Shown: positions 1 to 45,274 of the stretch, in pieces
Layout: every line of letters starts with the position of its first letter
How positions within the stretch are numbered: position 1 is the stretch's first letter
Made by a program: the position numbers and the translations under genes
Notes under the pieces: model-generated
The model's input: only the letters and a program-made list of their open reading frames with translations
Told to the model about the DNA's origin: nothing
Databases searched by the model: none
NCBI GenBank assembly: GCA_000004695.1
Contig: CM000150.2
Location: 512,001 to 576,000 of the forward strand
Source of the DNA: Dictyostelium discoideum
Taxonomy: Eukaryota
Length of the DNA: 64,000 bases
Direction: 5' to 3'

Positions 1-2098
1 TCCATCAGTATTTGATTATAAAATAAATCCATCAAATATTATTGTAAATGGATCTGATTTTTGTGATAGTTCTTATTCTTCAAATATTACAATTGATGGT
101 GTTATCATTCTAAATTCAAACTACCAAAAAGATGAAGACTCAATTGTAATTATTTATACTCAACAACACACGACCAAATCATTAATGAAAATTGAAACTA
201 GCAATGTAACTTCTGTTGAAATTGAAATTGTTTTTAAACCAGAACCATTAATTATAAATTCAATTCCATATATTAAAGGTGGTTTAATTATTTTAGAAGG
301 TTCAAGATTATCTTCAAATACAAATAAAAACAATAATAATAATATAATTATTAAAATTGGAAATATTACATGTTCAAACGCAATTTCAATCTCAAATGAA
401 TCAATCACATGTAATTTAAATCCGGGTATATATAATAAATCAGTTCCCTTAAATAATTTACCAGTTTCAGTTACAATTAACAATATTACAAATGAAAATA
501 CATTATTATTTAATTATGGTATGGTCAAATTAAATCCAAATAAATATAGTTTACCAGATCGTGTTTTACAATTAAATGGTGATTGTCTTGGAAATTCAAA
601 TAGTACCATAGTTTATTTAAATGGAAAAGAAACATTATTAAATGATTTAAAAATAAATAACCAAGAAACAACTTTATCATTTAAAATACCAGATGAATTT
701 AAATCAAAATTAAATGTTTCAATCAAGGTAAATGATATTTTATCAAATGAAATTCAAATTGATATTTCATTTTATGCAAGTTATTCTAATGAACAACCAA
801 GTACAAATGGTAATACAAATATAATATTCACATTATATAATATTAAATCTGAAAATTATAATAAAATACCATCAATTATTATAATTCCTGAACAAATTGT
901 AATAAATGGTGTTTCAGTAAATTCACCAACCAATCAAGATGTTCATTCGTATTCATTTTTAATTCCAGCTGGGTGTGGTAAAAAAGATATTCAAATTATA
1001 ATTGGTAGTCAATCATGTTTGTCATCAATTACATACTTTGAACCAATTATTAAAAATTGTTTAGTATCAGGTTTTGATGGTACAAATGGAAATATAATTT
1101 GTGATGGTAGTTTTGGTAATAAAGATTATTTAATTAAATCATCTGTACTTTTTTCAAATGATGAAATTGTACCACCATCAATCAATAGTACAACATTTTC
1201 GTTCCCACTAATATCAGGTTATCACAGTGATGATTTAATTTTTCAAATGTGCGGTGTTCAAAGTAAACCATTTAAATTAAACATCGCACCATCTTTGAAA
1301 AGAATCGATCAAAGTCAAATGGAAACATTGGGTGGTAAATTTTACATTCTTGGCGAATTCTTTGGTGTAAATATAAATTGTAGTGTATTTTGCAATGATA
1401 AAGAATATGAAAAAAAATTTGAAAACTCAAAGACGATTTCATTCGATTTACAAATTCCAGGTCCAAATGATATTACATGTAATTATACATTTGATAATGG
1501 AAAAAATACTGGTGATTTTAAGATTGAATATCCTTTACCATTAATAGAAAATACGAGTTCAATAAATGTAAATGGTGGAAATTTAACAATTTATGGTAAA
1601 AACTTTTATAATGTTTCAAATATCAAAGTTGAAGTTGATAATCAACTAAAATGTAATAATTTTGAATTTATTAATTTAAATAGTTTAACCTGTTTCTTAC
1701 CACCATTTAATGAAACAAGAAAACAATCATTATTTAATGATCAAAAACTATTATTAAATTCATCAACAACTATTTTTAGCAAAAAATTATTATTAAATGT
1801 TACATTTGAAAGTAAAACATGGAGTGGATATATTTTTCAATATTCAAAAGAAGAAATAAAAAATAATGATACAAGTGAAAATTCAACCAATGATATTTTA
1901 AATCATGAAAAAAATAATAATAATAATCAGAAAGATGGAAGTAGTTTAAGTAAAAAAAGTATAATATTATCAATATTATTACCTGGTTTTATTATTTTAG
2001 TAGTTTCTTTAACAATTGTTATTATTGTAATTAAAAGAAATAAAACAAAACATAGTAAAAATATGTCATCAAAAGAGAAAGAATTAATGAAACAATAA
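1..2098 (+). CDS. 5'-truncated copy 1 of a tandemly duplicated type-I membrane glycoprotein with several IPT/TIG-like extracellular repeats (tgr/'tiger'-family-like). The frame is open from window base 2 and the stop is at 2096-2098.
   Basis: Continuous ORF with no stop from position 2. The protein has about 40 N-x-S/T sequons and IPT-like segments (e.g. IINSIPYIKGGLIILEGSRL...ITCNLNPG). It has a single C-terminal TM helix (ILSILLPGFIILVVSLTIVIIVI) followed by a short basic tail (KRNKTKHSKNMSSKEKELMKQ). Nucleotides 1-2040 align almost base-for-base with 3838-5880 of the downstream gene. Confidence 0.6.
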   Translation, partial: PSVFDYKINPSNIIVNGSDFCDSSYSSNITIDGVIILNSNYQKDEDSIVIIYTQQHTTKSLMKIETSNVTSVEIEIVFKPEPLIINSIPYIKGGLIILEGSRLSSNTNKNNNNNIIIKIGNITCSNAISISNESITCNLNPGIYNKSVPLNNLPVSVTINNITNENTLLFNYGMVKLNPNKYSLPDRVLQLNGDCLGNSNSTIVYLNGKETLLNDLKINNQETTLSFKIPDEFKSKLNVSIKVNDILSNEIQIDISFYASYSNEQPSTNGNTNIIFTLYNIKSENYNKIPSIIIIPEQIVINGVSVNSPTNQDVHSYSFLIPAGCGKKDIQIIIGSQSCLSSITYFEPIIKNCLVSGFDGTNGNIICDGSFGNKDYLIKSSVLFSNDEIVPPSINSTTFSFPLISGYHSDDLIFQMCGVQSKPFKLNIAPSLKRIDQSQMETLGGKFYILGEFFGVNINCSVFCNDKEYEKKFENSKTISFDLQIPGPNDITCNYTFDNGKNTGDFKIEYPLPLIENTSSINVNGGNLTIYGKNFYNVSNIKVEVDNQLKCNNFEFINLNSLTCFLPPFNETRKQSLFNDQKLLLNSSTTIFSKKLLLNVTFESKTWSGYIFQYSKEEIKNNDTSENSTNDILNHEKNNNNNQKDGSSLSKKSIILSILLPGFIILVVSLTIVIIVIKRNKTKHSKNMSSKEKELMKQ

Positions 2099-2439
2099 TA
2101 GTAGCAATAAAAATAATTTAATAATTATTAAATTATTAAATTATTATTTATATTTAATAATTAATATTATTTGTAATAGGGAAATGGATGTATCTTCAAA
2201 ATATTTTTTATTTCTCTGATCATAAATTTGAACCTGACCGATTTTTTTCCAAATTTCAATTTCACATTCTCCCAACTCAACAAAAAGATATTACTTAAAA
2301 AACGATAAAATTATATCAAATAACAATTTTTAAAAAATAGTAATAAAAAAAAAAAAATTAAAAAGAAACATTCAATAATAATAAAAATTAAAAAAAATGT
2401 TTTTAAATTGTTGATTGTTTAGAAGTTTGTATTTTTTTT

Positions 2440-2960
2440 TGAAAATCCAATTTTAACTTTGGAGAAGTGGGTGTGTTTTTAATTTTTTTTTTTTGTAAAT
2501 CTAATTATAACTTAGGAGAAGTGGGTGTTTTTTTTTTTTTTTTTTTTTATGAAAGTGTGTTAATGTGTGATGTTTTGATTTGTTAAATGATTTTTTCTCT
2601 TTTAATTCAATTTGTTTTTTTTTAAAATACAATTTAATGTTTTTGATAGTGTGCATTTTTTATTTGTTTTTTTTTTTTTTTTTTTTGGAATGTGTGTTAG
2701 TGTACTATGTTTTATAAGTTATGTGAGTTTGTTGTGTTTTTTCAATTTATTTTATTTAAAATAAAGATAATGTTTTCGATAGTGTGTTATTTTTCAATAT
2801 ATTTTTGTTATCTGAGTTTGAAGAAGTGGGTGTTTTTTCAAATAATTATTGTTTTATGAGTGTTTTTAAGTGGTTAAGTGTGATGAAATTTTTTATTTTT
2901 GTTATTTTAAAAAAAAATACAAAGTTTTTTTGATAGTGTGTTAGTGTGTGTTTATTTAAT
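2440..2960. repeat. Degenerate G+T-rich tandem repeat of about 130 bp, three copies, in the spacer between the two duplicated genes.
   Basis: Recurring motifs: 'ggagaagtgggtgt' near 2463, 2516 and 2823; 'tgatagtgtg' near 2646, 2776 and 2932; 'gtgttagtgt' near 2690 and 2940. Each is embedded in similar 'aaaatacaatttaatgtttttgatagtgtg'-type context. Confidence 0.5.
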
Positions 2961-3176
2961 GTATTTTTATTCAATTTTTTTAATTATTTTTTAATTATAT
3001 TTGAATAAATAATAAAAAAAATAAAACATTAAAATATTTAATTTTTTTTTTTTTTTCATTTGTCAATATTAAAATTTACCAGTATAATTTATTATTTTTA
3101 CCATTCACCAATAAAAAAAAAAATTATTATTTATTTTAAAAATAAAAAACTAAATCTGATTTTAAATAGTTTTACA

Positions 3177-6100
3177 ATGGAGAAAAAATTATTAATAATA
3201 GTTATCATCTTTTTATTTTCAACTATCCAAGTATTTTGTCAAATTGATTATAGTATGTATAAAACAAAAAAACAAACTTTTAATAATTTTTTAAAATATA
3301 TTGTATTAATAATTGAAAACTTTAAATTAAAAATAGAAACATTTGTAATTTCAAATGAAACATACCTATCATACCATTTTCCAGTTGGTAGTGAATATTT
3401 TTCATCATTAAATTTTGAACGTTTCGTAGGTCCATCATTTCAACTGGATTTTGAATGTATTACTTTCAATGGTACAGTTTGTTTTTCTCAAATTAATCAA
3501 GAAAATAAAAAACAATTGTATGGTACATCCATTACCTATACAACAAAAGTAACTATTAGTTTGTATAAGAATAACCTTCCAACTCCAATAGTTTCTTCAC
3601 CTTTCCAACCTCCAACAAAAGGTGGAATCTCAATTTTAAAAGGTACCTATTTAACATTTTCTGAAAGACTTTCCTATTATGAAGTTATCTACCCAAAAAA
3701 ACAAAAGATTGTGATTTCAGATTCAGAATCATTATCATTCGATGCAACAAACGTTAAAGTTAATTGTCCACCTGGTTGTGGTTATCAAATAATTAAATGG
3801 GAGAATGGCCAATTATTTAATTTTAGTTATTCAAATCCATCAGTATTTGATTATAAAATAAATCCATCAAATATTATTGTAAATGGATCTGATTTTTGTG
3901 ATAGTTCTTATTCTTCAAATATTACAATTGATGGTGTTATCATTCCAAATTCAAACTACCAAAAAGATGAAGACTCAATTGTAATTATTTATATTCAACA
4001 ACACACAACCAAATCATTATTGAAAATAGAAACAAGCAATGTAACATCTGTTGAAATTGAAATTGTTTTTAAACCAGAACCATTAATTATAAATTCAATT
4101 CCATATAGTAAAGGTGGTTTAATTATTTTAGATGGTTCAAGATTATCTTCAAATACAAATAAAAACAATAATAATATAATTATTAAAATTGGAAATATTA
4201 CATGTTCAAACGCAATTTCAATCTCAAATGAATCAATCACATGTAATTTAAATCCGGGTATATATAATAAATCAGTTGCCTTAAATAATTTACCAGTTTC
4301 AGTTACAATTAATAATATTACAAATGGAAATACATTATTATTTAATTATGGTATGGTCAAATTAAATCCAAATAAATATAGTTTACCAGATCGTATTTTA
4401 CAATTAAATGGTGATTGTCTCGGAAATTCAAATAGTACTATTGTTTATTTAAATGGAAAAGAAACATTATTAAATGATTTAAAAATAAATAACCAAGAAA
4501 CAACTTTATCATTTAAAATACCAGATGAATTTAAATCAAAATTAAATGTTTCAATCAAGGTAAATGATATTTTATCAAATGAAATTCAAATTGATATTTC
4601 ATTTTATGCAAGTCATTCTAATGAACAACCAAGTACAAATGGTAATACAAATATTATATTCACATTATATAATATTAAATCTGAAAATTATAATAAAATA
4701 CCATCGATTATAATTATTCCTGAACAAATTGTTATTAATGGTGTTTCAGTAAATTCACCAACCAACCAAGATGTTCATTTGTATTCATTTTTAATTCCAG
4801 CTGGGTGTGGTAAAAAAGATATTCAAATTATAATTGGTAGTCAATCATGTTTGTCATCAATTACATACTTTGAACCAATTATTAAAAATTGTTTAGTATC
4901 AGGTTTTGATGGTACAAATGGAAATATAATTTGTGATGGTAGTTTTGGTAATAAAGATTATTTAATTAAATCATCTGTACTTTTTTCAAATGATGAAATT
5001 GTACCACCATCAATCAATAGTACAACATTTTCGTTCCCTCTAATATCAGGTTATCACAGTGATGATTTAATTTTTCAAATGTGCGGTGTTCAAAGTAAAC
5101 CATTTAAATTAAACATCTCACCATCATTAAAAAGAATCAATCAAAGTCAAATGGAAACATTGGGTGGTAAATTTTACATTCTTGGTGAATTCTTTAGTGC
5201 AAATATAAATTGTAGTGTATTTTGCAATGATAAAGAATATGAAAAACATTTTGAAAACTCAAAGACGATTTCATTCGATTTACAAATTCCAGGTCCAAAT
5301 GATATTACATGTAATTATACATTTGATAATGGAAAAAATACTGGTGATTTTAAGATTGAATATCCTTTACCATTAATAGAAAATACGAGTTCAATAAATG
5401 TGAATGGTGGAAATTTAACAATTTATGGTAAAAACTTTTATAATGTTTCAAATATCAAAGTTGAAGTTGATAATCAATTAAAATGTAATAATATTGAATT
5501 TATTAATTTAAACAGTTTAACCTGTTTCTTACCACCATTTAATGAAACAAGAGAGCAATCATTATTTAATGATCAAAAACTATTATTAAATTCATCAACA
5601 ACTATTTTTAGCAAAAAATTATTATTAAATGTTACATTTGAAAGTAAAACATGGAGTGGATATATTTTTCAATATTCAAAAGAAGAAATAAAAAATAATG
5701 GTACAAGTGAAAATTCAAGTAATGATATAATAGATCATGAAAAAAACAATAATACTACAAAAAATGGTAAAGGCGGTATCAATTTAAGTAAAGAAAGTAA
5801 AATAATAATTTCTGTAGTCTTACCTGGTGTTATTATTTTAATAATTTTATCGGTAGTAGTAATCTATCGTATTAGAATAAATAGAATTACACGAAATACA
5901 TATGTGAAAAAAATTAATGAAATGAAAACAATAACACCAGAAGAGAAACGAGATGAAATAGATGAATCAGATGAAATTAAAAAAAAACTTGATATTGAAA
6001 TGTCAGAATTAAGATCCAATCTATTCATACACTCAATCAGTTATACTAACACACTCAAAGAACAACAAATGGAAAGGGATCAAATCAATAAAAGTCCAAG

Positions 6101-6377
6101 TCTACAAATTCAACCACAAAATAATCAATTGAATATAATTAATAATGGTGAAGGTTCAAGTCAACAAATTCAACCACAAAGTAATCAATCAAATATTATT
6201 AATAATGATGAGGGTTCAAGCCACCAATTTCAACCTGAAATTAATCAATCCAATACAATTAATAATAGTGAAGGTTCAAGTCAACAAATTCAACCACAAA
6301 ATAATCAATTGAATATAATTAATAATGATGTGGGTTCAAGTCACCAATCTAAGCAAAATGATAGTACTGGTTGCTGA
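3177..6377 (+). CDS. Full-length copy 2 of the IPT/TIG-repeat type-I membrane glycoprotein (tgr-family-like), 1066 aa. It has a signal peptide, a large glycosylated ectodomain, a TM helix, and a roughly 180-aa cytoplasmic tail containing four 20-aa tandem repeats.
   Basis: The first ATG is at 3177 (the track's 3060 start is a TTG) and gives the signal peptide MEKKLLIIVIIFLFSTIQVFCQ. The ORF is open to the TGA at 6375-6377. The TM helix is IIISVVLPGVIILIILSVVVIY. The tail is rich in acidic residues and carries a (SSQQIQPQNNQLNIINNGEG)x4 repeat. Confidence 0.65.
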   Translation: MEKKLLIIVIIFLFSTIQVFCQIDYSMYKTKKQTFNNFLKYIVLIIENFKLKIETFVISNETYLSYHFPVGSEYFSSLNFERFVGPSFQLDFECITFNGTVCFSQINQENKKQLYGTSITYTTKVTISLYKNNLPTPIVSSPFQPPTKGGISILKGTYLTFSERLSYYEVIYPKKQKIVISDSESLSFDATNVKVNCPPGCGYQIIKWENGQLFNFSYSNPSVFDYKINPSNIIVNGSDFCDSSYSSNITIDGVIIPNSNYQKDEDSIVIIYIQQHTTKSLLKIETSNVTSVEIEIVFKPEPLIINSIPYSKGGLIILDGSRLSSNTNKNNNNIIIKIGNITCSNAISISNESITCNLNPGIYNKSVALNNLPVSVTINNITNGNTLLFNYGMVKLNPNKYSLPDRILQLNGDCLGNSNSTIVYLNGKETLLNDLKINNQETTLSFKIPDEFKSKLNVSIKVNDILSNEIQIDISFYASHSNEQPSTNGNTNIIFTLYNIKSENYNKIPSIIIIPEQIVINGVSVNSPTNQDVHLYSFLIPAGCGKKDIQIIIGSQSCLSSITYFEPIIKNCLVSGFDGTNGNIICDGSFGNKDYLIKSSVLFSNDEIVPPSINSTTFSFPLISGYHSDDLIFQMCGVQSKPFKLNISPSLKRINQSQMETLGGKFYILGEFFSANINCSVFCNDKEYEKHFENSKTISFDLQIPGPNDITCNYTFDNGKNTGDFKIEYPLPLIENTSSINVNGGNLTIYGKNFYNVSNIKVEVDNQLKCNNIEFINLNSLTCFLPPFNETREQSLFNDQKLLLNSSTTIFSKKLLLNVTFESKTWSGYIFQYSKEEIKNNGTSENSSNDIIDHEKNNNTTKNGKGGINLSKESKIIISVVLPGVIILIILSVVVIYRIRINRITRNTYVKKINEMKTITPEEKRDEIDESDEIKKKLDIEMSELRSNLFIHSISYTNTLKEQQMERDQINKSPSLQIQPQNNQLNIINNGEGSSQQIQPQSNQSNIINNDEGSSHQFQPEINQSNTINNSEGSSQQIQPQNNQLNIINNDVGSSHQSKQNDSTGC
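6098..6350 (+). repeat. Coding minisatellite: four tandem copies of a 60-bp unit encoding the 20-aa repeat in the cytoplasmic tail of copy 2.
   Basis: Units 'caaattcaaccacaaaataatcaattgaatataattaataatggtgaaggttcaagtcaa', 'caaattcaaccacaaagtaatcaatcaaatattattaataatgatgagggttcaagccac', and two more, lie in phase. The unit is absent from copy 1. Confidence 0.7.
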
Positions 6378-6709
6378 TAAATAATTAAAATAATAAAAAA
6401 AAAATAAAAAAATAAAAAAATAAAAAAATAGTAATAATATAATCCTTTTTTAAAATAATAAATTATAAACAATATTAATTTTTAATTTTTAAAATTATTA
6501 TTTTAGTATTTTCTTTTTACACCTTCAAAGCATAGGTACTTTTTAAAATTGAGATTTTTTTGTTTTTTTGTGTTGGAAAGGAGCAAAATTTGAAAAGATC
6601 TTTCTAAAAATAGAATTAATTTGAATGACAAAGTTTTTTTTTTTTTTTTTTTAAGATTTTTTTTTTTTTTTTTTTTTTATCATTTTTTTTTTTATTTTTA
6701 AAATCAAAA

Positions 6710-8050
6710 ATGAAAAACAGCTCATCAATGTTAAAAGGAGTTAAATCATTTATTGGTAGTGGAATTTATACAAACAAACCAATATATGATGTAGCAATTG
6801 TTGGTGGGGGTATAGTTGGATTAGCAACAGGTAGAGAATTATTAAAGAGGAATCCAAAATTAAAAATTGTAATACTTGAAAAGGAGAATGAAATTGCACC
6901 ACATCAATCATCACATAATAGTGGTGTAATTCATTGTGGAATTTATTATAAACCAGGATCATTAAGAGCTAAACTTTGTACAAAAGGTTCAAAGTTAATG
7001 TATGACTATTGTAATGAAAATCAAATAAACTATGAAAATTGTGGTAAATTAATTGTTGCAACTAAAAAAGAAGAATTTCAACAATTAGAACAACTCTATA
7101 AAAGAGGTATTGAAAATGGTGTACCAAATATAAAACTATTAGAATCAAAAGAACAACTATTATCAATTGAACCATTTATAAATGGTGGTTTACGTGCAAT
7201 TCATACACCATCAACTGGAATCATTGATTATAAAGAAGTCTCAAAATCATTTGGTAATGATATTACTGAAAAGTTTGGAAAAGATTCAAAATCTGAAATT
7301 AAATTAAATTTTAATGCAAAAAATTTTAAATATAATTCAAATGATAAATTATTATTAATTTCAACTGGTGATGATGATGATGATGAAGAACAACAACAAT
7401 CAATTTTAACCAAATATTCAATTGTATGTGGTGGCATGAATAGTGATAGAATTGCAAAAGTTGCATATGGTAATGATGAACCATCGATTGTACCATTTCG
7501 AGGTAGTTTTTTACAATTTAAACCAGAATTTAGACATTTGATTAAAGGTAATGTTTATCCATTACCAAATGCTTCATTCCCATTTTTAGGTGTTCATTTC
7601 ACAAAGAGGATTAATGGTGAAGTTTGGTTAGGTCCAAATGCGGTATTATCATTCGACAGAGAGGGATACAAATTCACAGATTTCAATCTACACGATACTA
7701 TTGATTTAATTAAAAATCCTGGTTTATTTAAATTGGCCAAAAAACATTGGAAATATGGCTTAGGTGAATTGTATAGAGATTTTAATAAAGATCATTTCAT
7801 TCAACTTTTAAAACCATATATGCCAAATATCACCGTGGACATGTTAGAATATGGAGGTAGTGGTGTTAGAAGTCAAGCAATTTCGAAATCTGGTGATTTA
7901 ATTGAAGATTTCATTTTTGATACACCATCAGATGTTCCAATAATACATGTAAGAAATTCACCTTCTCCTGCTGCAACCTCTTCACTTGCAATTGCAATTG
8001 AAATTGTAGATTTAGCTCAAAATAATTTTAAAAATTTAAATTCTTTATAA
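6710..8050 (+). CDS. l2hgdh: L-2-hydroxyglutarate dehydrogenase (FAD-dependent, mitochondrial type), 446 aa, single exon.
   Basis: N-terminal Rossmann/FAD motif DVAIVGGGIVGLATGRELLKR...LEKENEIAPHQSSHNSGVIHCGIYYKPGSLRAKLC is co-linear with L2HGDH orthologs. ATG at 6710. Confidence 0.88.
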   Translation: MKNSSSMLKGVKSFIGSGIYTNKPIYDVAIVGGGIVGLATGRELLKRNPKLKIVILEKENEIAPHQSSHNSGVIHCGIYYKPGSLRAKLCTKGSKLMYDYCNENQINYENCGKLIVATKKEEFQQLEQLYKRGIENGVPNIKLLESKEQLLSIEPFINGGLRAIHTPSTGIIDYKEVSKSFGNDITEKFGKDSKSEIKLNFNAKNFKYNSNDKLLLISTGDDDDDEEQQQSILTKYSIVCGGMNSDRIAKVAYGNDEPSIVPFRGSFLQFKPEFRHLIKGNVYPLPNASFPFLGVHFTKRINGEVWLGPNAVLSFDREGYKFTDFNLHDTIDLIKNPGLFKLAKKHWKYGLGELYRDFNKDHFIQLLKPYMPNITVDMLEYGGSGVRSQAISKSGDLIEDFIFDTPSDVPIIHVRNSPSPAATSSLAIAIEIVDLAQNNFKNLNSL

Positions 8051-8646
8051 AAAAAAAAAATAAAATAAAATTTAATAAAAGTACATTTTTATTTATTTAT
8101 TTATTTTTTTTTTTTTTTTTTAATTTGTTTGTTTGTTTGTTTGTTTACTACTTGTGTGTGGTTTTGATTTTTTTTTTGATGTTTTGTTGGATGATTTTTA
8201 TTTGATTGATTTCCCATACCTGAAATATGTTTTCTTTTTTTTGAAATTTTTCCTGTTATTTTTTCTTCTTTATTACAAGTAATTTCATTAATTGTTTCTT
8301 GTGATTCATTTTTTAGAGTCGTATCTTTTGTGTGTACTTTATCAATAACAATTGATTCTTGAATACTATTATTTGGATGATGGTTATTGCTGTTGCTGTT
8401 GCTATTGTTATTATTATCATTATTATCTTTAAGATCTTTAGTATTATTAACCAATTCAAGTTCTTCAGTTAATTTCTCTATTTTTCTATTATATTTATTA
8501 ATTTTTTTTTCGTTATTTAATGTATTTAATTTATTGTTAAAGTTTAATTTTCCTTTTATTTTTTTATTTTTATTTTTATCTAGTAACCTTTTATTAAAAT
8601 TATTTTAATTAGTAATGAGGAAAATAATAAAAAAATAAAAAATAAA

Positions 8647-8701
<55 letters not shown>

Positions 8702-8750
8702 CAAAACATTGTTATCTTTTTTTAATTTAGTTATTGTTTATTAATTTAGT

Positions 8751-8971
8751 TTAATATCCGTACAAACCACTACCACCAATTCTATTGGAACTATCTTGAT
8801 TTTCATTATTACGACTGTTATTATTATTGGTATTGGTATTAATACTAGTAATATCTTTATTTTTATTTTTATTTCTATTATACTTGTCTTTGTTTTTATT
8901 ATTATTATTATTTTTATTAATATTATTATTATTTTTATTATTATTAGTAGTAGTAGTTGTTGTTGTTGTAG

Positions 8972-9003
<32 letters not shown>

Positions 9004-10397
9004 GTATTATTAGTATTATTTATTCTATTATTATGTTTTTTACTATCTTCTATATAATTTTCATTAATTTTCTTATTAATTAAAGTAAAATCTAAATTTT
9101 CTTGTTGTTGTTGTTGAGATTGTGTTAATAACTCTCTAAAGTATGGTTTAAGGAAACTAAGCATTGAAGAAAAGAATTTTATACATTCACCATTTGAACC
9201 ATCAGGACGTAAAAAGAAAGGAGAAAAAAAAGTACATTTGAAAACCTCTTTTTGATCAACCCATTCTAAAAACAATTGATCAGTATGTTTCATAGAGGTA
9301 CGATCAACCGATTTAAATAAATCAGGTATATTTGAATCAAATGGTATTGGTGCACAAAATAAAACATACTTTGAATTTGGTATCCAAAATTTTTGAGTTT
9401 TTTCCGATTGAAATAGTTCTCTATACTCTTGAAGTGAATTTTCAAAGATGAAACCAGTCTCTTCATTGAATTCTCTGGTGGCGGTATCTATTGCAATCTC
9501 ACCATTTTCAATCTTTCCACCAAATGGTAAGAAAACTTCATTGGTAAGCGATGAATTTGGATTCTTTTTTCTCTTTTCAGTTCTATCTTCACATCCCATT
9601 AAAAATTTGATTTTACCTTGATCAATTGAAAATAATAAAACACCAGCTGCTTTATAATTTTTATCAACTTCATCTGGTACTATAGTAAATGATGAATTTT
9701 TTGAAAAGATACCTTGAGTTTTATTTTCTTTTTGTTGTGGTTGTTGTTGTTCATTTTGTAGTTGTTCATGTTGTAGTTGTTCATGTTGTAGTTGTTCGTG
9801 TTGTCCACTGCTATAATTTCTTTGTTGTTGTCTATATGATGAAGATGATGAAGATGATGATGAAGATGAAGATTTATAACTATTTACATAATTTTTTTGT
9901 TCATTACCATAATAATTTGCTGATCGATTATTTTGTCTACTCTCTGAATAATAGTCTCTGCTATTGTCATCATAATCCTTTGTGCTATTATAACTTGATC
10001 TTTGTTGTTGTTGTGTAGAATAATTTCTATCTTGGTCATATCCTCTGTTGTTATTATTACCATAATAATCATCTCTATAATTTTGGTAGTGTCTGCTTTG
10101 ACTGTTATGGTCAAATCTAACTTGGCCACTATTGTAGTTATCATTGTAACTGTTGTTATTGTAATTGTCGTATCTATTGTTATTATTACTATTATTATTA
10201 TTATAGTTATTATTATAGTTATTATTATTATTATTATAGTTATTATTATTATTATAATCTCTATTATAATCTCTATTATTGAAGCTATTACGATCCCCCA
10301 TTGTTGAATATTTATTAAAATTTAGAAGGAAAGGTTTGGTATTTGAAATTGAGTTTTTCAATTGAATAGTTGATAATTGAATTCTAGAAGGGATCAT
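8751..10397 (-). CDS. Nudix hydrolase-domain protein with a roughly 230-aa Asn/Gln/Tyr/Ser-rich (prion-like) N-terminal region, 548 aa.
   Basis: Canonical Nudix box G-x5-E-x7-REUxEExGU is present as GGKIENGEIAIDTATREFNEETGF. Real ATG (minus strand) at 10397. Low-complexity N-terminus includes (QHEQL)x3. Confidence 0.7.
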
Positions 10398-10602
10398 ATT
10401 TTTTTTTTTAGAAATAAAAAAAAAAATAATAGTTAATAAAAAAATATAAACTTTTTTTTTTTTTCTTTTATCTATACAAACAAAAAGATGAGTTTTTAAA
10501 TAAAGAAATTTATTATGTGTGTGTTTTGAAAAAAAAAATTGAAATGAATCTAAAAAAAGTTTTTTTTAAAAAAAAATTTCAAAACTCTTATTTTTTTTTT
10601 AT

Positions 10603-10641
<39 letters not shown>

Positions 10642-11163
10642 TTAACCAAATTGGGATGTTTCAAACAAAAAATAAAAAAATAGAATATTAGAAAAGAAAT
10701 TTGAATTTCAATGCCCATCTTTAATCATGGTTTTATTAATTAAAAAAAAAAAAAAAAAAAAAATTAAAGAATAAAAAAAAAAAAAATAATAAAATAAAAT
10801 TAGAAATCAAATAAATTAATAAAAAAATAATAAAATAAAATTTTAAAATAATAATAATAATAATTATATCATATTCATTTTGTATTTTTTATTTTTTTAT
10901 TTATTTTTATTTTTTTTTATTTTTTATTTTTTTTTTTTAAAAATATTAAAATACTAATACGAGAATTATTTGAAAAAAAAAAAAAAAAACACTTTCGTTA
11001 AAATTTTAAAAAAAAATCAAAAGATATTTTGAAAAACGGGTGGAAAAAAAAAAAAAAATCGAAAATTTTTTTTTTTTTTTTTTTTTTTATAAACACTAGT
11101 GTTTTTTTTTAATTATCAAACCATAACACTATTATCTAATAAAAATAATAATAATATAATAAA

Positions 11164-11493
11164 ATGAATAAGATTTCATTTGAAATGGTTGATTTAAGAG
11201 AATCATACGACTATGAATTATTGAAAAGGTTTTATAATGAATTAATGATTCCAAATTTTCCAGATGAAAATGAATTAGAACCTTTAGAAAGTTGGGTTGA
11301 AATGTTTGGAAATTTAAATGAAAATAATAATAATAATAATAATAACAATTTAAACTTTTTTAACAATGACAATAACCAAGAAACTATTAATATAAATTTT
11401 GAAAATAATTTATTTTTTGGATCAAATGGTGCTGATGGTGCTGATATAATTGAATATCAAGAAGAAGAAGAACAACAACAACAACAAAAACAA

Positions 11494-11526
<33 letters not shown>

Positions 11527-13381
11527 CTCGATAAAAAAAATAATGAAGATGATGAAGAAAATATTGAATTTCATATAGTTTTATCAATTTGTTCAGAAAA
11601 AGATAGAATTGAAGGACAATCTAATATATTGGGTGGTATTGTATTTGAATATTATCCATCAATAAATTGTGGTTGTATAACTTATATATTGGTTAATGAT
11701 AATTATCGTGGACTTGGGATAGCGAGTAAATTATTAAAAGAATCAAATAATAGATTCAACGATATCGCTAATCGATTTGGACATCTTTCTGGATGTAATG
11801 CAATATTCTTAGAGACAAATTCCGCAGAGAGGGTCAAACCAGAGAATGACGTAATGGATCCATCTAAACGTCATTCAATATTCCATAAAATGGGTATCAG
11901 GTTACTAGATTTCGATTACATTCAACCACCATTATCAAATGATAGTAATAAATGTAAAGATTTATTATTACTATGTTTATTAACTCAAAATATACCAAAA
12001 CAACAAAAATTGAAAATAAATAATAATAATAATAATAATAATAATTCAATTGATAGATATTATTATTTACCAAGTTTATTATTGGAGAGTTTTATTAAAG
12101 TGTTTTGGAAATCATGTTATTCTAGAATCACCCCTAAAATCAATTGGAAAAAAGATGTTGATTATCAAAGAATGGTAGATCAATTAAAGAGAAGAGAAAT
12201 AATACCGTTATTAGATTTACCTTGGAATAGACCTTGGACATTGGTTGACTTAAGAGATAGTTTCAATTCAAATAGATCATTAATCACTAAATTTTATAAT
12301 CAAATTTTAGTACCAAATTTTAAAGGTCATCATGAATTAGAATCACTTGAATCTTGGTTTAAAATGTTACCATTAATAGATAATAATAGCAATACCAATA
12401 ATAGCAATTCTAATGCTAATAATTATAATAATGATTTCTTTCATTTATTAGTTGCATTAAGATATCTAAATGATGATATTGATCATAATCAAGAACCAAT
12501 CATTTGTGGTGGTATTGCATTTGAATATCATCCAAAATCAAATTGTGCATTAATTACTTACTTTTTAATTGGTGGTGGTGAAAATAATCGTTCTGAAATG
12601 ATGGCAAAAGCATTACTTCAAAGATCACTTGAAATCATTGAACAAAATGCAATCGATTGTGGTAATTTAGCTGGTTGTAATGCAATATTTATTGAAAATA
12701 ATAAAAATAATCATAATAATCAAAATAATCAAAATAATAATAATAATACAAAAGAATATTTAAATCAAGATGAAATCATTGAAATATCATATAATTCAGA
12801 ATTTTTAGAGAAATTAGGTTTTATGAAATTAGATTTTAATTATGTTCAACCACCATTATCATTTGAAAAAAGTTCAAGTAATTCTTTAAATTTATTAGTT
12901 TTATTAACTTCGAGAATACCACAAACTATTGATTTAAATTTAATTGAAAATGAAAATGAAAATAATAATATTAATATTAATAATAATAATTATTTACCAA
13001 ATTCATTAATTATTAAATTTATTCAAACATTTTGGGAAAATACAATTAAAAGAAATGAAATTATAAATTTAAATTTATATGAAAATGATTTAAATTTTAA
13101 TATTATGATGGATAGTTTAAAAAGGAAATCTAAAATCCAATTATTAAAATCATCATTAAATTCAAGTTGGGATAATAATTTCACATTAATTGATTTAGCA
13201 GTTGATTTCCATCAAGATTTATTCGACCAATTTTATAATTCATTACCATTTAATAATGAAAATCAAAATCAAAATAATAATAATTATTTAAATATTGAAC
13301 CTAAATCAATATTACAAAAATCCTTATTAAAGAAATCAAATTTTCAAGAAGATATTCATATTTTATTATTAGTTTCATATG

Positions 13382-44389: not shown

Positions 44390-44589
44390 TTTCGTTTAAA
44401 TATTTTTAATTTAACAATTTGGAAAAAAATAAAAAAAACGGAAAAAGAAGACATTTTTAAAATTTTATTTTATTTTATTTTATTTTATTTTTAATATGGA
44501 TTTAGTATAGATAAATAAACACTCAAAAATACCATTTTAAAAAAAAAAAAAATTTGATTTAAATGATTTGCTTGGAATTTCACACATTT

Positions 44590-45274
44590 CAAAAATTAAA
44601 TCATCGCTATGATATCCTGATATTAATGGGAATGATAAAGTGGTACTATTAATTAATGGTGTAATAATATTGAATTTAATAACATGTAATTTACCACCAA
44701 TTAATGAAACAAACCAATCATCAATTTTTAATCAAAAATTACTAATAAACACAACAACCACAACTTTTAGTAAAAAGTTATTATTAAAAATAACATTTGA
44801 AGTAAATCATGGAGTGGATTGATTTTTCAATATTCTAAAGATGAAATTCAATATTATGATGATAGTGAAAACTCAAGTGGTAAAACTTTTAATGCTAGCA
44901 CAAATCAAAATAACAAAGGAAACAAGGGAAATGGAATTAATATGAGTATAAGAGATATAGTGTTAATTTGTACTTTAGTGCCTTCTTGTATAATCATAGT
45001 AGTATTTTCGGTAATGGTTTTTTTAAGAATAAGAAGAAAGAGAATAGAACAAATAAATTATCTCAAAAGTATTAAAAAAAGAAATTATTTATCACAAGAA
45101 CAAAAAGAAAAAAATCGTTTAAAAGCAAAAGAAGTTGACAATGAGATCCAAAAAAAAATATTTGAAAATAAATGTTTCATGCTTCAATATGCTACCAGGA
45201 ATGCAACTTATAGAAGTACTGTGGCATGGATGGAAAAAGAGTTAAAAAAACAAGAAGATCAATTAAAAAGTTAA
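44590..45274 (+). pseudogene. Frameshifted 3' remnant of a third tgr-like IPT/TIG glycoprotein gene: last ectodomain segment, TM helix, and a distinct cytoplasmic tail.
   Basis: NLITCNLPPINETNQSSIFNQKLLINTTTTTFSKKLLLKITFE matches NSLTCFLPPFNETRKQSLFNDQKLLLNSSTTIFSKKLLLNVTFE of the genes at 1-6377. At about 44813-44822 a 1-bp deletion relative to the intact copies ('gaagtaaatcatgg' versus 'gaaagtaaaacatgg') shifts the frame and creates a TGA. The +1 frame then continues as IFQYSKDEIQYY..., TM helix IVLICTLVPSCIIIVVFSVMVF, and tail RIRRKRIEQINYLKSIKK.... No 5' two-thirds of the gene is present. Confidence 0.55.

What the first reader, a model, noticed from the sequence alone, without database searches (positions are those of the whole stretch)
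1..6377. Very recent tandem duplication of an IPT/TIG-rich adhesion-type glycoprotein gene (tgr/'tiger'-like), with the two copies carrying different cytoplasmic tails
Window bases 1-2040 and 3838-5880 are about 97-98% identical at nucleotide level, with only scattered substitutions (e.g. NENTLL versus NGNTLL, HSYSF versus HLYSF). The copies diverge completely after the TM helix. Copy 1 ends 21 aa after the membrane (KRNKTKHSKNMSSKEKELMKQ). Copy 2 carries a roughly 180-aa acidic tail with a four-fold 20-aa repeat. In Dictyostelium the tgr family mediates kin recognition, and tail differences would rewire signalling while keeping the recognition ectodomain the same. So an identical ectodomain paired with alternative intracellular outputs is a notable arrangement. 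Copy 1 is cut by the window edge, so the duplicated unit may be larger.
Basis: partly seen in the sequence, partly recalled or inferred. Interest (0 to 1): 0.7.

Follow-up and report, generated by a model that had tools for sequence, protein, structure and literature searches.

The report
Recombining tgrO adhesion-gene array, Dictyostelium
The two look-alike genes are the last two members of the already annotated four-gene tgrO ('tiger') cell-surface gene array of Dictyostelium discoideum; they are an old pair, one with a long and one with a truncated cytoplasmic tail, whose middle parts are kept nearly identical by ongoing recombination between copies, so this is an ordinary if neat example of tandem gene-family evolution.

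Summary
The duplication is real. Window 1-2006 matches 3836-5847 at 96.1% including gaps, and 97.8% in the core. The family call is also right: Pfam Ig_TgrO1 scores E=5e-44, and the gene just upstream of the window is UniProt 'Tiger protein O1'. The two copies are XP_647197.1 (890 aa, full length, 21-aa tail) and XP_647198.2 (1038 aa, 169-aa tail with four 20-aa repeats).

It is not a 'very recent duplication of two genes'. A second assembly of the same lineage shows four tandem 3.66-kb units: three with the short tail, and only the last with the long tail. The long tail is ancestral, because it is present in D. citrinum and D. firmibasis. The short tail is a truncated remnant of it.

Segment trees and site patterns are mosaic. 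The core groups by genome, the TM-proximal 3' end groups by tail type across strains, and a 5' patch is swapped between copies. Synonymous divergence is 0.064 in the core, about 0.6 at the TM and 0.30 at the N-terminus.

A third strain carries a single hybrid gene (short-copy 5' half joined to a long-copy 3' half), which is a direct product of unequal crossing-over.

Verdict: a known gene cluster evolving by the concerted, birth-and-death dynamics already described for tgr genes. TgrO function is unknown.

The parts
1..2098 (+). Copy 1: the 3' 2.1 kb of a short-tail tgrO gene (XP_647197.1 / Q55GI7, 890 aa). Window base 2 is the first base of codon 193. The first 192 codons, the 85-nt intron and the promoter lie upstream of the window.
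   Evidence: ORF and translation. Exact protein P0004. The window aligns to L001 from position 10661 at 99.65%. Pfam Ig_TgrO1 E=5e-21.
1..1870 (+). Homogenised core of copy 1, 97.8% identical to copy 2. Its 3' boundary falls at about 1856-1884.
   Evidence: Sliding identity. Four-taxon site blocks. Core dS 0.064, omega 0.19.
1961..2032 (+). Transmembrane helix of copy 1 (…IILSILLPGFIILVVSLTIVIIVI). It is only ~70% identical to copy 2's TM at DNA level and is orthologous to the TM of the short copy in strain 2 (95%).
   Evidence: Hydropathy. Alignment. Segment identity and tree.
2033..2098 (+). Short cytoplasmic tail of copy 1 (21 aa, KRNKTKHSKNMSSKEKELMKQ, pI 10.4) plus the stop codon. It is a truncated remnant of the membrane-proximal long tail.
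   Evidence: Units 1-3 and the strain-2 short copy share it.
2099..3176 (+). Inter-unit spacer. 2099-2460 is the 3' flank specific to short-tail units. 2432-2539 holds two 54-nt direct repeats. 2621-3176 is the upstream (promoter) region of copy 2, 90-91% identical to the regions upstream of units 2 and 3.
3177..6377 (+). Copy 2: the complete long-tail tgrO gene (XP_647198.2 / Q55GI6, 1038 aa). Exon 1 is 3177-3252, the intron 3253-3336, and exon 2 3337-6377.
   Evidence: Pfam Ig_TgrO1 E=5e-44 in 3 stretches.
3518..3596 (+). N-terminal hypervariable patch. It has two old haplotypes (…TTKVTISLYKNNL… vs …STQKTYKLDHELF…) that sit on different copies in different strains.
   Evidence: Run of 16 'cross' informative sites. 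Protein alignment. N-terminal dS 0.30, dN 0.15. 5' tree pairs copy 2 with the strain-2 short copy at 100%.
3600..5691 (+). Homogenised core of copy 2 (Ig-like repeat ectodomain), the tract kept alike between paralogs within each genome.
   Evidence: 73 by-genome sites vs 1 by-type and 1 cross. Core tree groups by genome at 96-100%.
5691..5719 (+). 3' breakpoint of the homogenised tract, where by-genome site patterns switch to by-tail-type patterns.
   Evidence: Runs test p<=5e-5.
5802..5867 (+). Transmembrane helix of copy 2 (IIISVVLPGVIILIILSVVVIY).
   Evidence: Predicted helix from residue ~844.
5868..6377 (+). Long cytoplasmic tail of copy 2 (169 aa, pI 5.2) plus the stop codon. The proximal part is conserved and predicted helical; the distal part is N/Q/S-rich repeats.
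   Evidence: The tail is conserved in D. citrinum, D. cf. discoideum and D. firmibasis orthologs.
6097..6347 (+). Tandem repeat with period 60 nt and 4.2 copies, encoding QIQPQNNQSNIINNDEGSS-type 20-aa units. Other strains have about 8 units.
   Evidence: TRF.. P0003 sequence.
6710..8050 (+). Single-copy FAD-dependent oxidoreductase (DAO family) gene. It serves as the syntenic anchor and local neutral clock; it is not part of the array.
   Evidence: dS values.

Best explanation
Window 1-6377 is the downstream half of the tgrO cluster of Dictyostelium discoideum (AX lineage). The cluster is a head-to-tail array of four ~3.66-kb units, each with its own upstream region. Each unit encodes a type-I membrane glycoprotein: a signal peptide, a variable N-terminal region, a string of Ig-like (E-set/TgrO1-type) domains, one TM helix and a cytoplasmic tail.

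The last unit (copy 2) sits next to the DAO gene and keeps the ancestral ~170-aa tail: a conserved helical proximal part followed by a variable number of 20-aa repeats. The three upstream units, including copy 1, carry a derived tail cut to 21 aa.

The short-tail/long-tail split is old. It predates the divergence of D. discoideum strains and is probably as old as the split from D. citrinum. The promoter-to-juxtamembrane part of the units is repeatedly homogenised by non-allelic homologous recombination (unequal crossing-over and gene conversion). The same process changes copy number, from 1 to 4 among close relatives, and shuffles an N-terminal variable patch between short-tail and long-tail genes. 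That is why the two copies look 'recently duplicated' in the core yet differ at both ends.

Shown here: gene identity, array structure, the mosaic history, a natural crossover product, and purifying selection on the core (omega about 0.2).

Inferred: the long-tail protein is the signalling-competent member, by analogy with the TgrB1 receptor, whose cytoplasmic domain carries activating mutations. The tail-less copies would then act as adhesion-only, ligand-like or decoy partners, or as a sequence reservoir.
For: Identity:
- Pfam PF24612 E=5e-44.
- Copy 2 is XP_647198.2 and copy 1 is XP_647197.1.
- Unit 2 is XP_647196.2, 'Tiger protein O1'.

Array:
- L001 is 99.65% identical to the window and shows four units with 3646-3693-bp spacing. 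Units 1-3 share the short tail and its 3' flank.

Long tail is ancestral:
- It is present with repeats in orthologs from another D. discoideum strain, D. citrinum, D. cf. discoideum and D. firmibasis.
- The short tail aligns to its first ~30 residues.

Mosaic history:
- The core tree groups by genome (copy 1 + copy 2 96%, strain-2 s+L 100%, citrinum s+L 100%). The 3' TM tree groups by tail type (100% and 92%). The 5' tree pairs copy 2 with the strain-2 short copy (100%).
- Informative sites fall in blocks: 73 G / 1 T / 1 X in the core, then all T from 5719. There are 17 runs against 89 expected, p<=5e-5.

Clock:
- DAO dS is 0.080 (AX vs strain 2), 0.14 (AX vs D. cf. discoideum) and 0.31 (AX vs D. 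citrinum).
- Paralog core dS is 0.064, 0.045, 0.032 and 0.031 in four genomes, against ortholog core dS of 0.144-0.149 and 0.48.
- TM-region dS is 0.61. N-terminal dS is 0.30.

Unequal crossover:
- Strain 3 has DAO dS 0.015 from strain 2 and a single gene. Its 5' end is 99.8% identical to the strain-2 short copy and its 3' end 97.8% identical to the strain-2 long copy.
- The switch lies 1.75-1.94 kb into the gene, and the upstream flank is of the short-copy type.

Literature:
- The tgrA/H/I/O subfamilies duplicate prolifically, and their functions are unknown (PMC12745789).
- Interlocus gene conversion and mosaicism are reported for tgrB genes (bioRxiv 10.1101/2025.10.22.684067).
- TgrB1 is the receptor, with an activating mutation in its cytoplasmic domain (PMC12142906).
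Against: - The age estimate for the short/long split rests on short segments: 51 codons, ~31 synonymous sites and 197 tree columns. The D. citrinum upstream copy does not group specifically with the D. discoideum short type (50% support), so 'older than the citrinum split' is only suggestive.
- Two genomes (strain 3 and D. cf. discoideum ACTFIZ) lack a short copy. This requires losses. One loss is directly explained by the hybrid gene; the other is not.
- Unequal crossing-over and gene conversion cannot be told apart for the core tract.
- No expression or protein data for these genes were examined. Most tgr genes are reported to be lowly expressed (PMC12745789, bioRxiv 10.1101/2025.10.22.684067).
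- Unit 1 and the D. citrinum upstream copy are degenerate, so the tail-less copies may not be functional. Conversion from the long copy could keep their ORFs intact.
- The functional analogy with TgrB1/TgrC1 is an inference only.
Confidence: 0.8

Rival explanations
1. A very recent simple tandem duplication of one gene occurred, and afterwards one copy acquired a different 3' end, giving two isoforms with the same ectodomain and alternative tails.
For: The core is 97.8% identical and the copies are adjacent and co-oriented. The upstream regions are also homologous.
Against: - Core dS of 0.064 equals the inter-strain divergence at the flanking gene, so the event is not very recent.
- The 3' ends of the short and long copies each have clear orthologs in another strain: 95.4% and 91.8%, against 73.5% between the paralogs.
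- TM dS is ~0.6.
- It is a four-unit array.
- The N-terminal 190 aa differ (dS 0.30).
- The same near-identity of paralogs appears independently in strain 2, D. citrinum and D. firmibasis.
Confidence: 0.05
2. Pure birth-and-death. Each lineage duplicated its own long-tail gene independently and recently, and each time the upstream copy lost its tail, with no recombination between paralogs.
For: Copy number differs between genomes, from 1 to 4. tgrO-type genes are reported to duplicate prolifically (PMC12745789).
Against: - Independent truncations would not give the same short tail, TM variant and 3' flank in the AX lineage and strain 2.
- The abrupt switch of site patterns within one gene and the hybrid gene of strain 3 both require exchange between paralogs.
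Confidence: 0.05
3. Same evolutionary history, but the short-tail units (including copy 1) are functionally dead or dying copies. Their open reading frames are kept intact only by conversion from the functional long-tail gene. At most they serve as a reservoir of sequence variants, as proposed for tgrB/C pseudogenes.
For: - Unit 1 needs several artificial introns and lacks ~50 aa.
- The D. citrinum upstream copy has a deletion and a disrupted TM.
- Strain 2 carries a remnant of a further unit.
- Strain 3 and ACTFIZ do without a short copy.
- Most tgr genes are lowly expressed, and 26 of 64 AX4 tgr loci are pseudogenes (PMC12745789).
Against: - Units 2 and 3 and the strain-2 short copy are intact over 885-890 codons, including the non-converted TM and tail segment, which is 95% conserved between strains.
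- Core omega is 0.19.
- Each has a conserved upstream region and intron.
- Unit 2 is curated as Tiger protein O1.
Confidence: 0.3
4. Assembly artefact: the repeat was created by mis-assembly of allelic or collapsed reads.
For: Tandem tgr arrays are hard to assemble, and Illumina data are reported to be inaccurate for this family (bioRxiv 10.1101/2025.10.22.684067).
Against: - An independent assembly reproduces the structure at 99.65% identity over 12.1 kb.
- The copies differ by 61 substitutions and have distinct ends.
- Syntenic two-copy arrays exist in two other genomes.
Confidence: 0.01

Closest known systems
tgrO subfamily of the Dictyostelium tgr ('tiger') gene family (TgrO1 = Q55GI8; the tgrA/H/I/O group of Holland et al. 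2025, PMC12745789)
   Same: Copies 1 and 2 are the two genes immediately downstream of tgrO1 in the same array. They are 89-92% identical to it at DNA level and have the same Pfam Ig_TgrO1 domains, signal peptide, single TM and intron position. This subfamily is reported as numerous and fast-duplicating, with unknown function.
   Different: Nothing essential differs; they are members. The held literature does not mention the short-tail/long-tail dimorphism of the array, its mosaic history or the natural hybrid gene.
tgrB1/tgrC1 allorecognition locus (receptor-ligand pair; hypervariable, recombining tgrBC locus)
   Same: It belongs to the same protein family. Variation is concentrated near the N-terminus. 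It shows intralocus recombination, duplication, gene conversion and mosaic genes (PMC12745789; bioRxiv 10.1101/2025.10.22.684067). One partner's cytoplasmic domain matters for signalling (PMC12142906).
   Different: - tgrB1 and tgrC1 are a head-to-head pair with a shared promoter and dissimilar ectodomains. Here the genes are head-to-tail, each with its own upstream region, and their ectodomains are ~97% alike.
- No allorecognition role is known for TgrO.
- N-terminal omega here is 0.5-0.8, not above 1.
Concerted evolution of tandem gene arrays by unequal crossing-over and gene conversion (textbook cases: primate alpha-globin duplicates, opsin arrays, rDNA)
   Same: - Paralogs within a genome are more alike than orthologs between genomes.
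- Conversion tracts have sharp boundaries with older divergence outside them.
- Copy number varies, and hybrid genes arise from crossovers between paralogs.
   Different: The homogenised tract here covers the promoter and ectodomain but spares the TM/tail module. It also leaves an N-terminal patch dimorphic, so functional modules at both ends stay distinct.
Membrane receptors with truncated tail-less paralogs or isoforms that act as decoys (for example truncated TrkB, decoy IL-1R2)
   Same: The same ectodomain is paired with either a full or a minimal cytoplasmic tail.
   Different: Here the two forms come from separate genes rather than splicing, and there is no evidence of decoy function. 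This is an analogy from general knowledge only.

Membership tests
[quoted passage not shown] | Ig-like E-set / TgrO1-type repeated extracellular domains | tested here: met
   PF24612 Ig_TgrO1 scores E=5e-44 (3 stretches) for copy 2 and E=5e-21 (2 stretches) for the window part of copy 1. All 18 relatives hit it. The model is all-beta, and Foldseek hits are multi-Ig ectodomains, though at low confidence.
[quoted passage not shown] | Recognisable IPT/TIG domain (Pfam PF01833 / IPR002909) | tested here: not met
   No PF01833 hit at E<=1 for either copy. 5 of 18 relatives hit it, with best E=6e-18. TIG-likeness of these two proteins is therefore inferred from homology, not shown.
[quoted passage not shown] | N-terminal signal sequence and a single C-terminal transmembrane helix (type I topology) | tested here: met
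   Both full-length proteins begin MEKKLLIIVIIFLFSTIQVFC. There is one strong hydrophobic segment at aa ~846-869, with Kyte-Doolittle score 3.1-3.2. The model predicts a helix from ~844. No dedicated signal-peptide predictor was available.
[quoted passage not shown] | Curated membership or orthology to a named tgr gene | tested here: met
   The adjacent unit is an exact match to UniProt TGRO1_DICDI / XP_647196.2. Copies 1 and 2 are XP_647197.1 and XP_647198.2. Their own gene symbols (tgrO2/O3?) were not verified.
TgrB1/TgrC1-type allorecognition pair | Head-to-head gene pair sharing one promoter | tested here: not met
   All four units are on the same strand, head-to-tail, each with ~0.5 kb of its own homologous upstream sequence.
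TgrB1/TgrC1-type allorecognition pair | Extreme polymorphism with diversifying selection near the N-terminus | tested here: inconclusive
   Core ortholog dS is 1.8x that of the flanking gene. The N-terminal patch has two deep haplotypes (dS 0.30, dN 0.15-0.22, omega 0.5-0.8), but omega stays below 1 and only three strains were compared.
TgrB1/TgrC1-type allorecognition pair | Heterophilic binding, developmental expression at aggregation, and a segregation phenotype | not testable with these tools
   No expression or binding data were accessible. The literature states that TgrO function is unknown (PMC12745789).
Tandem array under concerted evolution (NAHR / gene conversion) | Within-genome paralogs more similar than between-genome orthologs | tested here: met
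   Paralog core dS is 0.031-0.064 in four genomes, against ortholog dS of 0.144-0.48. The core tree groups by genome at 96-100%.
Tandem array under concerted evolution (NAHR / gene conversion) | Discordant histories along the gene with sharp breakpoints | tested here: met
   Segment trees are discordant. Informative sites fall in blocks, with 17 runs against 89 expected, p<=5e-5.
Tandem array under concerted evolution (NAHR / gene conversion) | Copy-number variation and hybrid genes from crossovers between paralogs | tested here: met
   The syntenic site holds 4, 2 (plus a remnant), 1, 1 and 2 units in five genomes. The strain-3 gene is a short-5'/long-3' hybrid.

The most novel reading that the evidence does not exclude
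The tgrO array is a second recognition-type module, maintained by selection. In this reading a signalling-competent long-tail receptor and tail-less partners (ligand- or decoy-like) share a homogenised stalk. They are kept different at a membrane-distal N-terminal specificity patch, whose two old haplotypes are preserved by balancing selection. Unequal crossing-over re-pairs patch and tail between strains, as seen in the strain-3 hybrid and in the swapped patch of the AX lineage versus strain 2. This would generate new recognition and signalling combinations.
Probability: 0.1. Interest if true: 0.7.

Novelty: already known. Interest (0 to 1): 0.3.

Why it matters
The genes are annotated tgrO family members, and the family's rapid duplication, pseudogenisation and recombination were published in 2025, so the finding itself is not new.

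This check adds a clean, locus-level worked example outside the tgrBC hotspot:
- The tail dimorphism is old, and the long tail is the ancestral form.
- The 'recent-looking' identity comes from homogenisation with a mapped breakpoint just before the TM.
- An N-terminal patch is exchanged between short-tail and long-tail genes.
- A natural single-gene hybrid documents unequal crossing-over.

For people working on Tgr proteins, this points to the TM/tail module and the N-terminal patch as the units selection keeps distinct. It also offers natural tail-plus and tail-minus versions of nearly the same ectodomain for testing what Tgr cytoplasmic tails do.

For genome scanning, the lesson is that high paralog identity is not evidence of recent duplication.

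Tried and rejected
- Remnants of the long tail downstream of copy 1's stop. tblastn with six long tails against window 1850-3200 found nothing beyond the TM-proximal match (best E=5e-8 to D. citrinum, ending at ~2095). No decayed tail is detectable, and the origin of the 360-bp short-type 3' flank (2099-2460) stays unresolved.
- Sensitive blastn of the spacer. It was swamped by AAT/low-complexity hits, and only a few rows were usable.
- Profile search of the family against PDB sequences. It gave only chance hits to ribosomal L19 at E>0.5.
- AlphaFold2 model from an 18-sequence alignment. Mean pLDDT was 46.6, too poor to count domains or to tell IPT/TIG from other Ig-like folds. Foldseek hits had TM-scores ~0.1.
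- Bacterial promoter/terminator scan of the spacer. It is not applicable to a eukaryote and found fewer sites than in shuffles.
- Literature searches for tgrA1-4 and tgrO/H/I names were mostly irrelevant.
- My provisional idea that this is the 'tgrA same-strand cluster' was rejected when the neighbouring unit matched Tiger protein O1 exactly.
- Hirose et al. 2017 (PMC5769593) on the TgrB1/TgrC1 tails is not held.
- An exact look-up of copy 2's protein on contigs failed, so copy 1's look-up (L001) was used instead.
- No supplementary tables of PMC12745789 are held, so the gene symbols of copies 1 and 2 are unverified.

Full report
**1. Observation.** The window is 22% G+C and clearly dictyostelid. 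blastn of the window against itself gives one long direct repeat, 1-2006 vs 3836-5847. It is 96.1% identical over 2018 columns, with 61 mismatches and 8 gap openings.

Sliding identity is 94-100% up to about 1900/5733. It then falls to ~70% and reaches background after ~2065/5906. An ORF open at the window edge ends at 2098 with the tail KRNKTKHSKNMSSKEKELMKQ. A second gene starts at ATG 3177 and ends at 6377.

Copy 2 has one 84-nt intron, at 3253-3336. Its tail is 169 aa with pI 5.2, and contains four 20-aa repeats. TRF reports period 60, 4.2 copies, at 6097-6347. The quoted substitutions are present. The high-identity tract ends ~100 nt before the TM, not after it. The TM segments are ~70% identical. 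The tail is 169 aa rather than ~180, and only mildly acidic.

**2. Identity.** Pfam gives PF24612 'TgrO1-like immunoglobulin-like domain' at E=5e-44 for copy 2 and 5e-21 for copy 1. The TIG model PF01833 does not hit either protein at E<=1. It does hit 5 of 18 relatives.

The homolog search finds only Dictyostelium proteins. Copy 2 is XP_647198.2/Q55GI6 (1038 aa) and copy 1 is XP_647197.1/Q55GI7 (890 aa, full length with signal peptide), both from AX4 chromosome-size contigs.

An independent assembly of the same lineage is L001 (GCA_054883475.1). It matches window 1-12135 at 99.65%, with window base 1 at L001 10661, so it serves as the upstream extension. The gene upstream of copy 1 is an exact match to XP_647196.2 = UniProt Q55GI8, 'Tiger protein O1'. 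The locus is therefore the annotated tgrO cluster.

**3. Anatomy of the array.** L001 holds four head-to-tail units spaced 3646-3693 bp apart:

| Unit | Protein | State | Tail |
|---|---|---|---|
| 1 | 836 aa as annotated | degenerate: lacks ~50 aa and needs several 'introns' | short |
| 2 | 887 aa (tgrO1) | intact | short |
| 3 (copy 1) | 890 aa | intact | short |
| 4 (copy 2) | 1038 aa | intact | long |

The single-copy DAO-family gene follows unit 4. Units 1-3 share the short tail and ~360 bp of 3' flank (window 2099-2460). All units share ~0.5 kb of upstream sequence and the intron position. Only the last unit has the long tail.

**4. Which tail is ancestral.** Several orthologs carry a long tail with the same proximal motif (…TPEEKR…EIKK.L.IEMSELR…) and 3-8 copies of the 20-aa repeat. 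They come from another D. discoideum strain (P0003, 1117 aa), D. citrinum (P0006), D. cf. discoideum (P0007, P0008) and D. firmibasis (P0010, P0012, P0015).

In a protein alignment, the short tail lines up with the first ~30 residues of the long tail: KRNKTK---------HSKNMSSKEKELMKQ against RINRITRNTYVKKINEMKTITPEEKRDEID. In strain 2 it stops four residues earlier. No decayed remainder of the tail is detectable downstream. The short tail is thus a truncation of the ancestral tail, not an alternative module.

**5. Recent duplication or homogenised old duplication?** Syntenic loci next to the DAO gene were fetched:

| Genome (locus) | TgrO content next to DAO |
|---|---|
| Strain 2 (L002, ACTFIW) | remnant + short copy (885 aa) + long copy |
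| D. citrinum (L003) | degenerate upstream copy + long copy |
| D. cf. discoideum ACTFIZ (L005) | long copy only |
| Strain 3 (L007, ACTFIR) | long copy only |

D. firmibasis (L006) has three long copies in tandem. Its synteny was not checked, because no DAO gene falls within the locus fetched.

A MAFFT alignment of all units shows a mosaic. Neighbour-joining trees with bootstrap give:

- **Core (1382 columns): grouped by genome.** AX units 97%, copy 1 + copy 2 96%, strain-2 s+L 100%, citrinum s+L 100%.
- **TM-proximal 3' segment: grouped by tail type.** AX short units + strain-2 short 100%, AX long + strain-2 long 92%.
- **5' segment: copy 2 pairs with the strain-2 short copy** (100%).

Parsimony-informative sites were scored for the four sequences AX-short, AX-long, strain-2-short and strain-2-long, and they fall in clean blocks:

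- Upstream region and 5' start: mostly by-genome.
- Window 3518-3596: a run of 16 'cross' sites.
- About 3600 to 5691: 73 by-genome, 1 by-type, 1 cross.
- From 5719 on: only by-type.

Over the alignable part there are 17 runs, against 89 expected by permutation (p<=5e-5).

**6. Time scale.** The flanking DAO gene serves as a local clock.

| Comparison | dS |
|---|---|
| DAO, AX vs strain 2 | 0.080 |
| DAO, AX vs D. cf. discoideum | 0.14 |
| DAO, AX vs D. citrinum | 0.31 |
| DAO, strain 2 vs strain 3 | 0.015 |
| Core, copy 1 vs copy 2 | 0.064 (omega 0.19) |
| Core, strain-2 pair | 0.045 |
| Core, D. citrinum pair | 0.032 |
| Core, D. firmibasis pair | 0.031 |
| Core, positional orthologs AX vs strain 2 | 0.144-0.149 |
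| Core, AX vs D. citrinum | 0.48 |
| Juxtamembrane+TM, copy 1 vs copy 2 (51 codons) | 0.61 |
| N-terminal 87 codons, copy 1 vs copy 2 | 0.30 |

The core was therefore last homogenised about as long ago as the AX/strain-2 split, which is not recent. The ends are several-fold older. The short/long split certainly predates the strain split. It is probably as old as the D. citrinum split, but that rests on few sites, and the 3' tree does not place the citrinum upstream copy with the D. discoideum short type.

**7. Direct evidence of the mechanism.** Strain 3 is very close to strain 2 but has one gene instead of two.

- Its 5' 420 nt are 99.8% identical to the strain-2 short copy, against 82.6% to the long copy.
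- Its TM region is 97.8% identical to the strain-2 long copy, against 74.8% to the short copy.
- At sites where the strain-2 paralogs differ, it follows the short copy 151:35 up to 1.75-1.94 kb into the gene. After that it follows the long copy 224:6.
- Its upstream flank is of the short-copy type (94.9% vs 91.3%).

This is the deletion product expected from unequal crossing-over between the two paralogs. The reciprocal product explains expansions such as the three short units of the AX lineage. Within the AX array, copy 1 is itself a patchwork: its 5' end is like unit 2 (99.5%), its core like copy 2, and its 3' end like units 1 and 2.

**8. What the proteins are.** Each is a type-I membrane protein, with these parts in order:

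- a signal peptide;
- a variable N-terminal region;
- an almost all-beta ectodomain with 23-28 N-glycosylation sequons and 19 cysteines;
- one TM helix;
- a cytoplasmic tail.

The AlphaFold2 model is poor (pLDDT 46.6). The Foldseek hits include contactin, DSCAM, Robo, plexin and MET ectodomains, at E down to 1e-10 but with TM-scores ~0.1. They support no more than 'a string of Ig-like domains'.

In the model, the proximal long tail is helical and the repeat region is disordered.

**9. Function (inferred).**

- PMC12745789 states that Tgr cytoplasmic domains mediate signalling and that TgrA/H/I/O functions are unknown.
- PMC12142906 describes TgrB1 as the receptor and TgrC1 as the ligand, with an activating TgrB1 mutation in the cytoplasmic domain.
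- A tgrO4 protein was recovered in a Sec7 pull-down (PMC3737031), so at least one TgrO protein is made.

My best guess is that copy 2 is the signalling-competent member. The tail-less copies would then be adhesion-only, ligand-like or decoy partners. I give this about 0.3, and the same weight to the alternative that they are decaying copies kept open by conversion. Unit 1 and the citrinum upstream copy are already degenerate.

**10. Comparison and novelty.** The genes are annotated. The tgr family's rapid duplication, pseudogenisation, intralocus recombination and gene conversion are published (PMC12745789; bioRxiv 10.1101/2025.10.22.684067). The head-to-tail layout and near-identical ectodomains distinguish this array from the head-to-head tgrB1/C1 pair.

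I did not find the following in the held literature: the tail dimorphism of the tgrO array, the mapped homogenisation boundary, the swapped N-terminal patch and the natural hybrid gene. These are details of a known process in a known family. I therefore rate the finding as already known, with interest 0.3.

Noticed in passing
window 44573-45232: Remnant of another tgr gene. tblastn of XP_647134.1 (a 1038-aa long-tail paralog) aa 746-940 matches 44660-45232 on the + strand (75% identity, E=1e-61), with a frame shift near 44801. An inverted piece (aa 587-615, 97%) lies at 44659-44573. It is probably a rearranged tgr pseudogene, and ORF 44819-45274 lies on it.
   Followed up: partly
L002 5178-5598: Strain 2 carries a remnant of an extra upstream tgrO unit: 233 bp at 88-90% identity to the core plus 134 bp at 87% to the 3' end. 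It is annotated as a 125-aa gene and is evidence of an earlier larger array followed by internal deletion.
   Followed up: partly
window 2432-2539 (also 2614-2667): Two adjacent 54-nt direct repeats (87% identical) in the spacer, TTTTTTTTTGAAAATCCAATTTTAACTTTGGAGAAGTGGGTGTG…, with a weaker third copy. The GGAGAAGTGGGTGT motif recurs at 2818-2832. Window 2461-2620 is the only part of the spacer that does not align to the other inter-unit spacers.
   Followed up: no
L004 5727-12201 (D. cf. discoideum ACTFIY): A tgrO-type long-tail gene plus fragments, one of them inverted (7562-7816), at a non-syntenic site with no DAO gene and near a DDE_3 transposase gene. This is consistent with the reported insertion of tgrO-type genes at new genomic locations.
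   Followed up: no
window 6097-6347 vs L002 12918-13410 and L007 12922-13550: The number of 20-aa tail repeats differs between strains: about 4 in the AX lineage, about 8 in strains 2 and 3, and 3 to ~7 in related species. The tail length of the long form is therefore itself polymorphic.
   Followed up: partly
window 3600-5690 compared with 6710-8050: Between the AX lineage and strain 2, synonymous divergence of the tgrO core (0.144-0.149) is about 1.8 times that of the adjacent DAO gene (0.080). It is also 0.48 vs 0.31 against D. citrinum. The cause could be a locally higher mutation or recombination input, or older coalescence at the tgrO genes.
   Followed up: no
window 8751-10397 (- strand) and 8600-8720: A 548-aa ORF very rich in Asn/Gln/Ser homopolymer runs, next to a poly(A) tract of about 60 nt. 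Both are typical Dictyostelium low-complexity sequence and were not examined.
   Followed up: no
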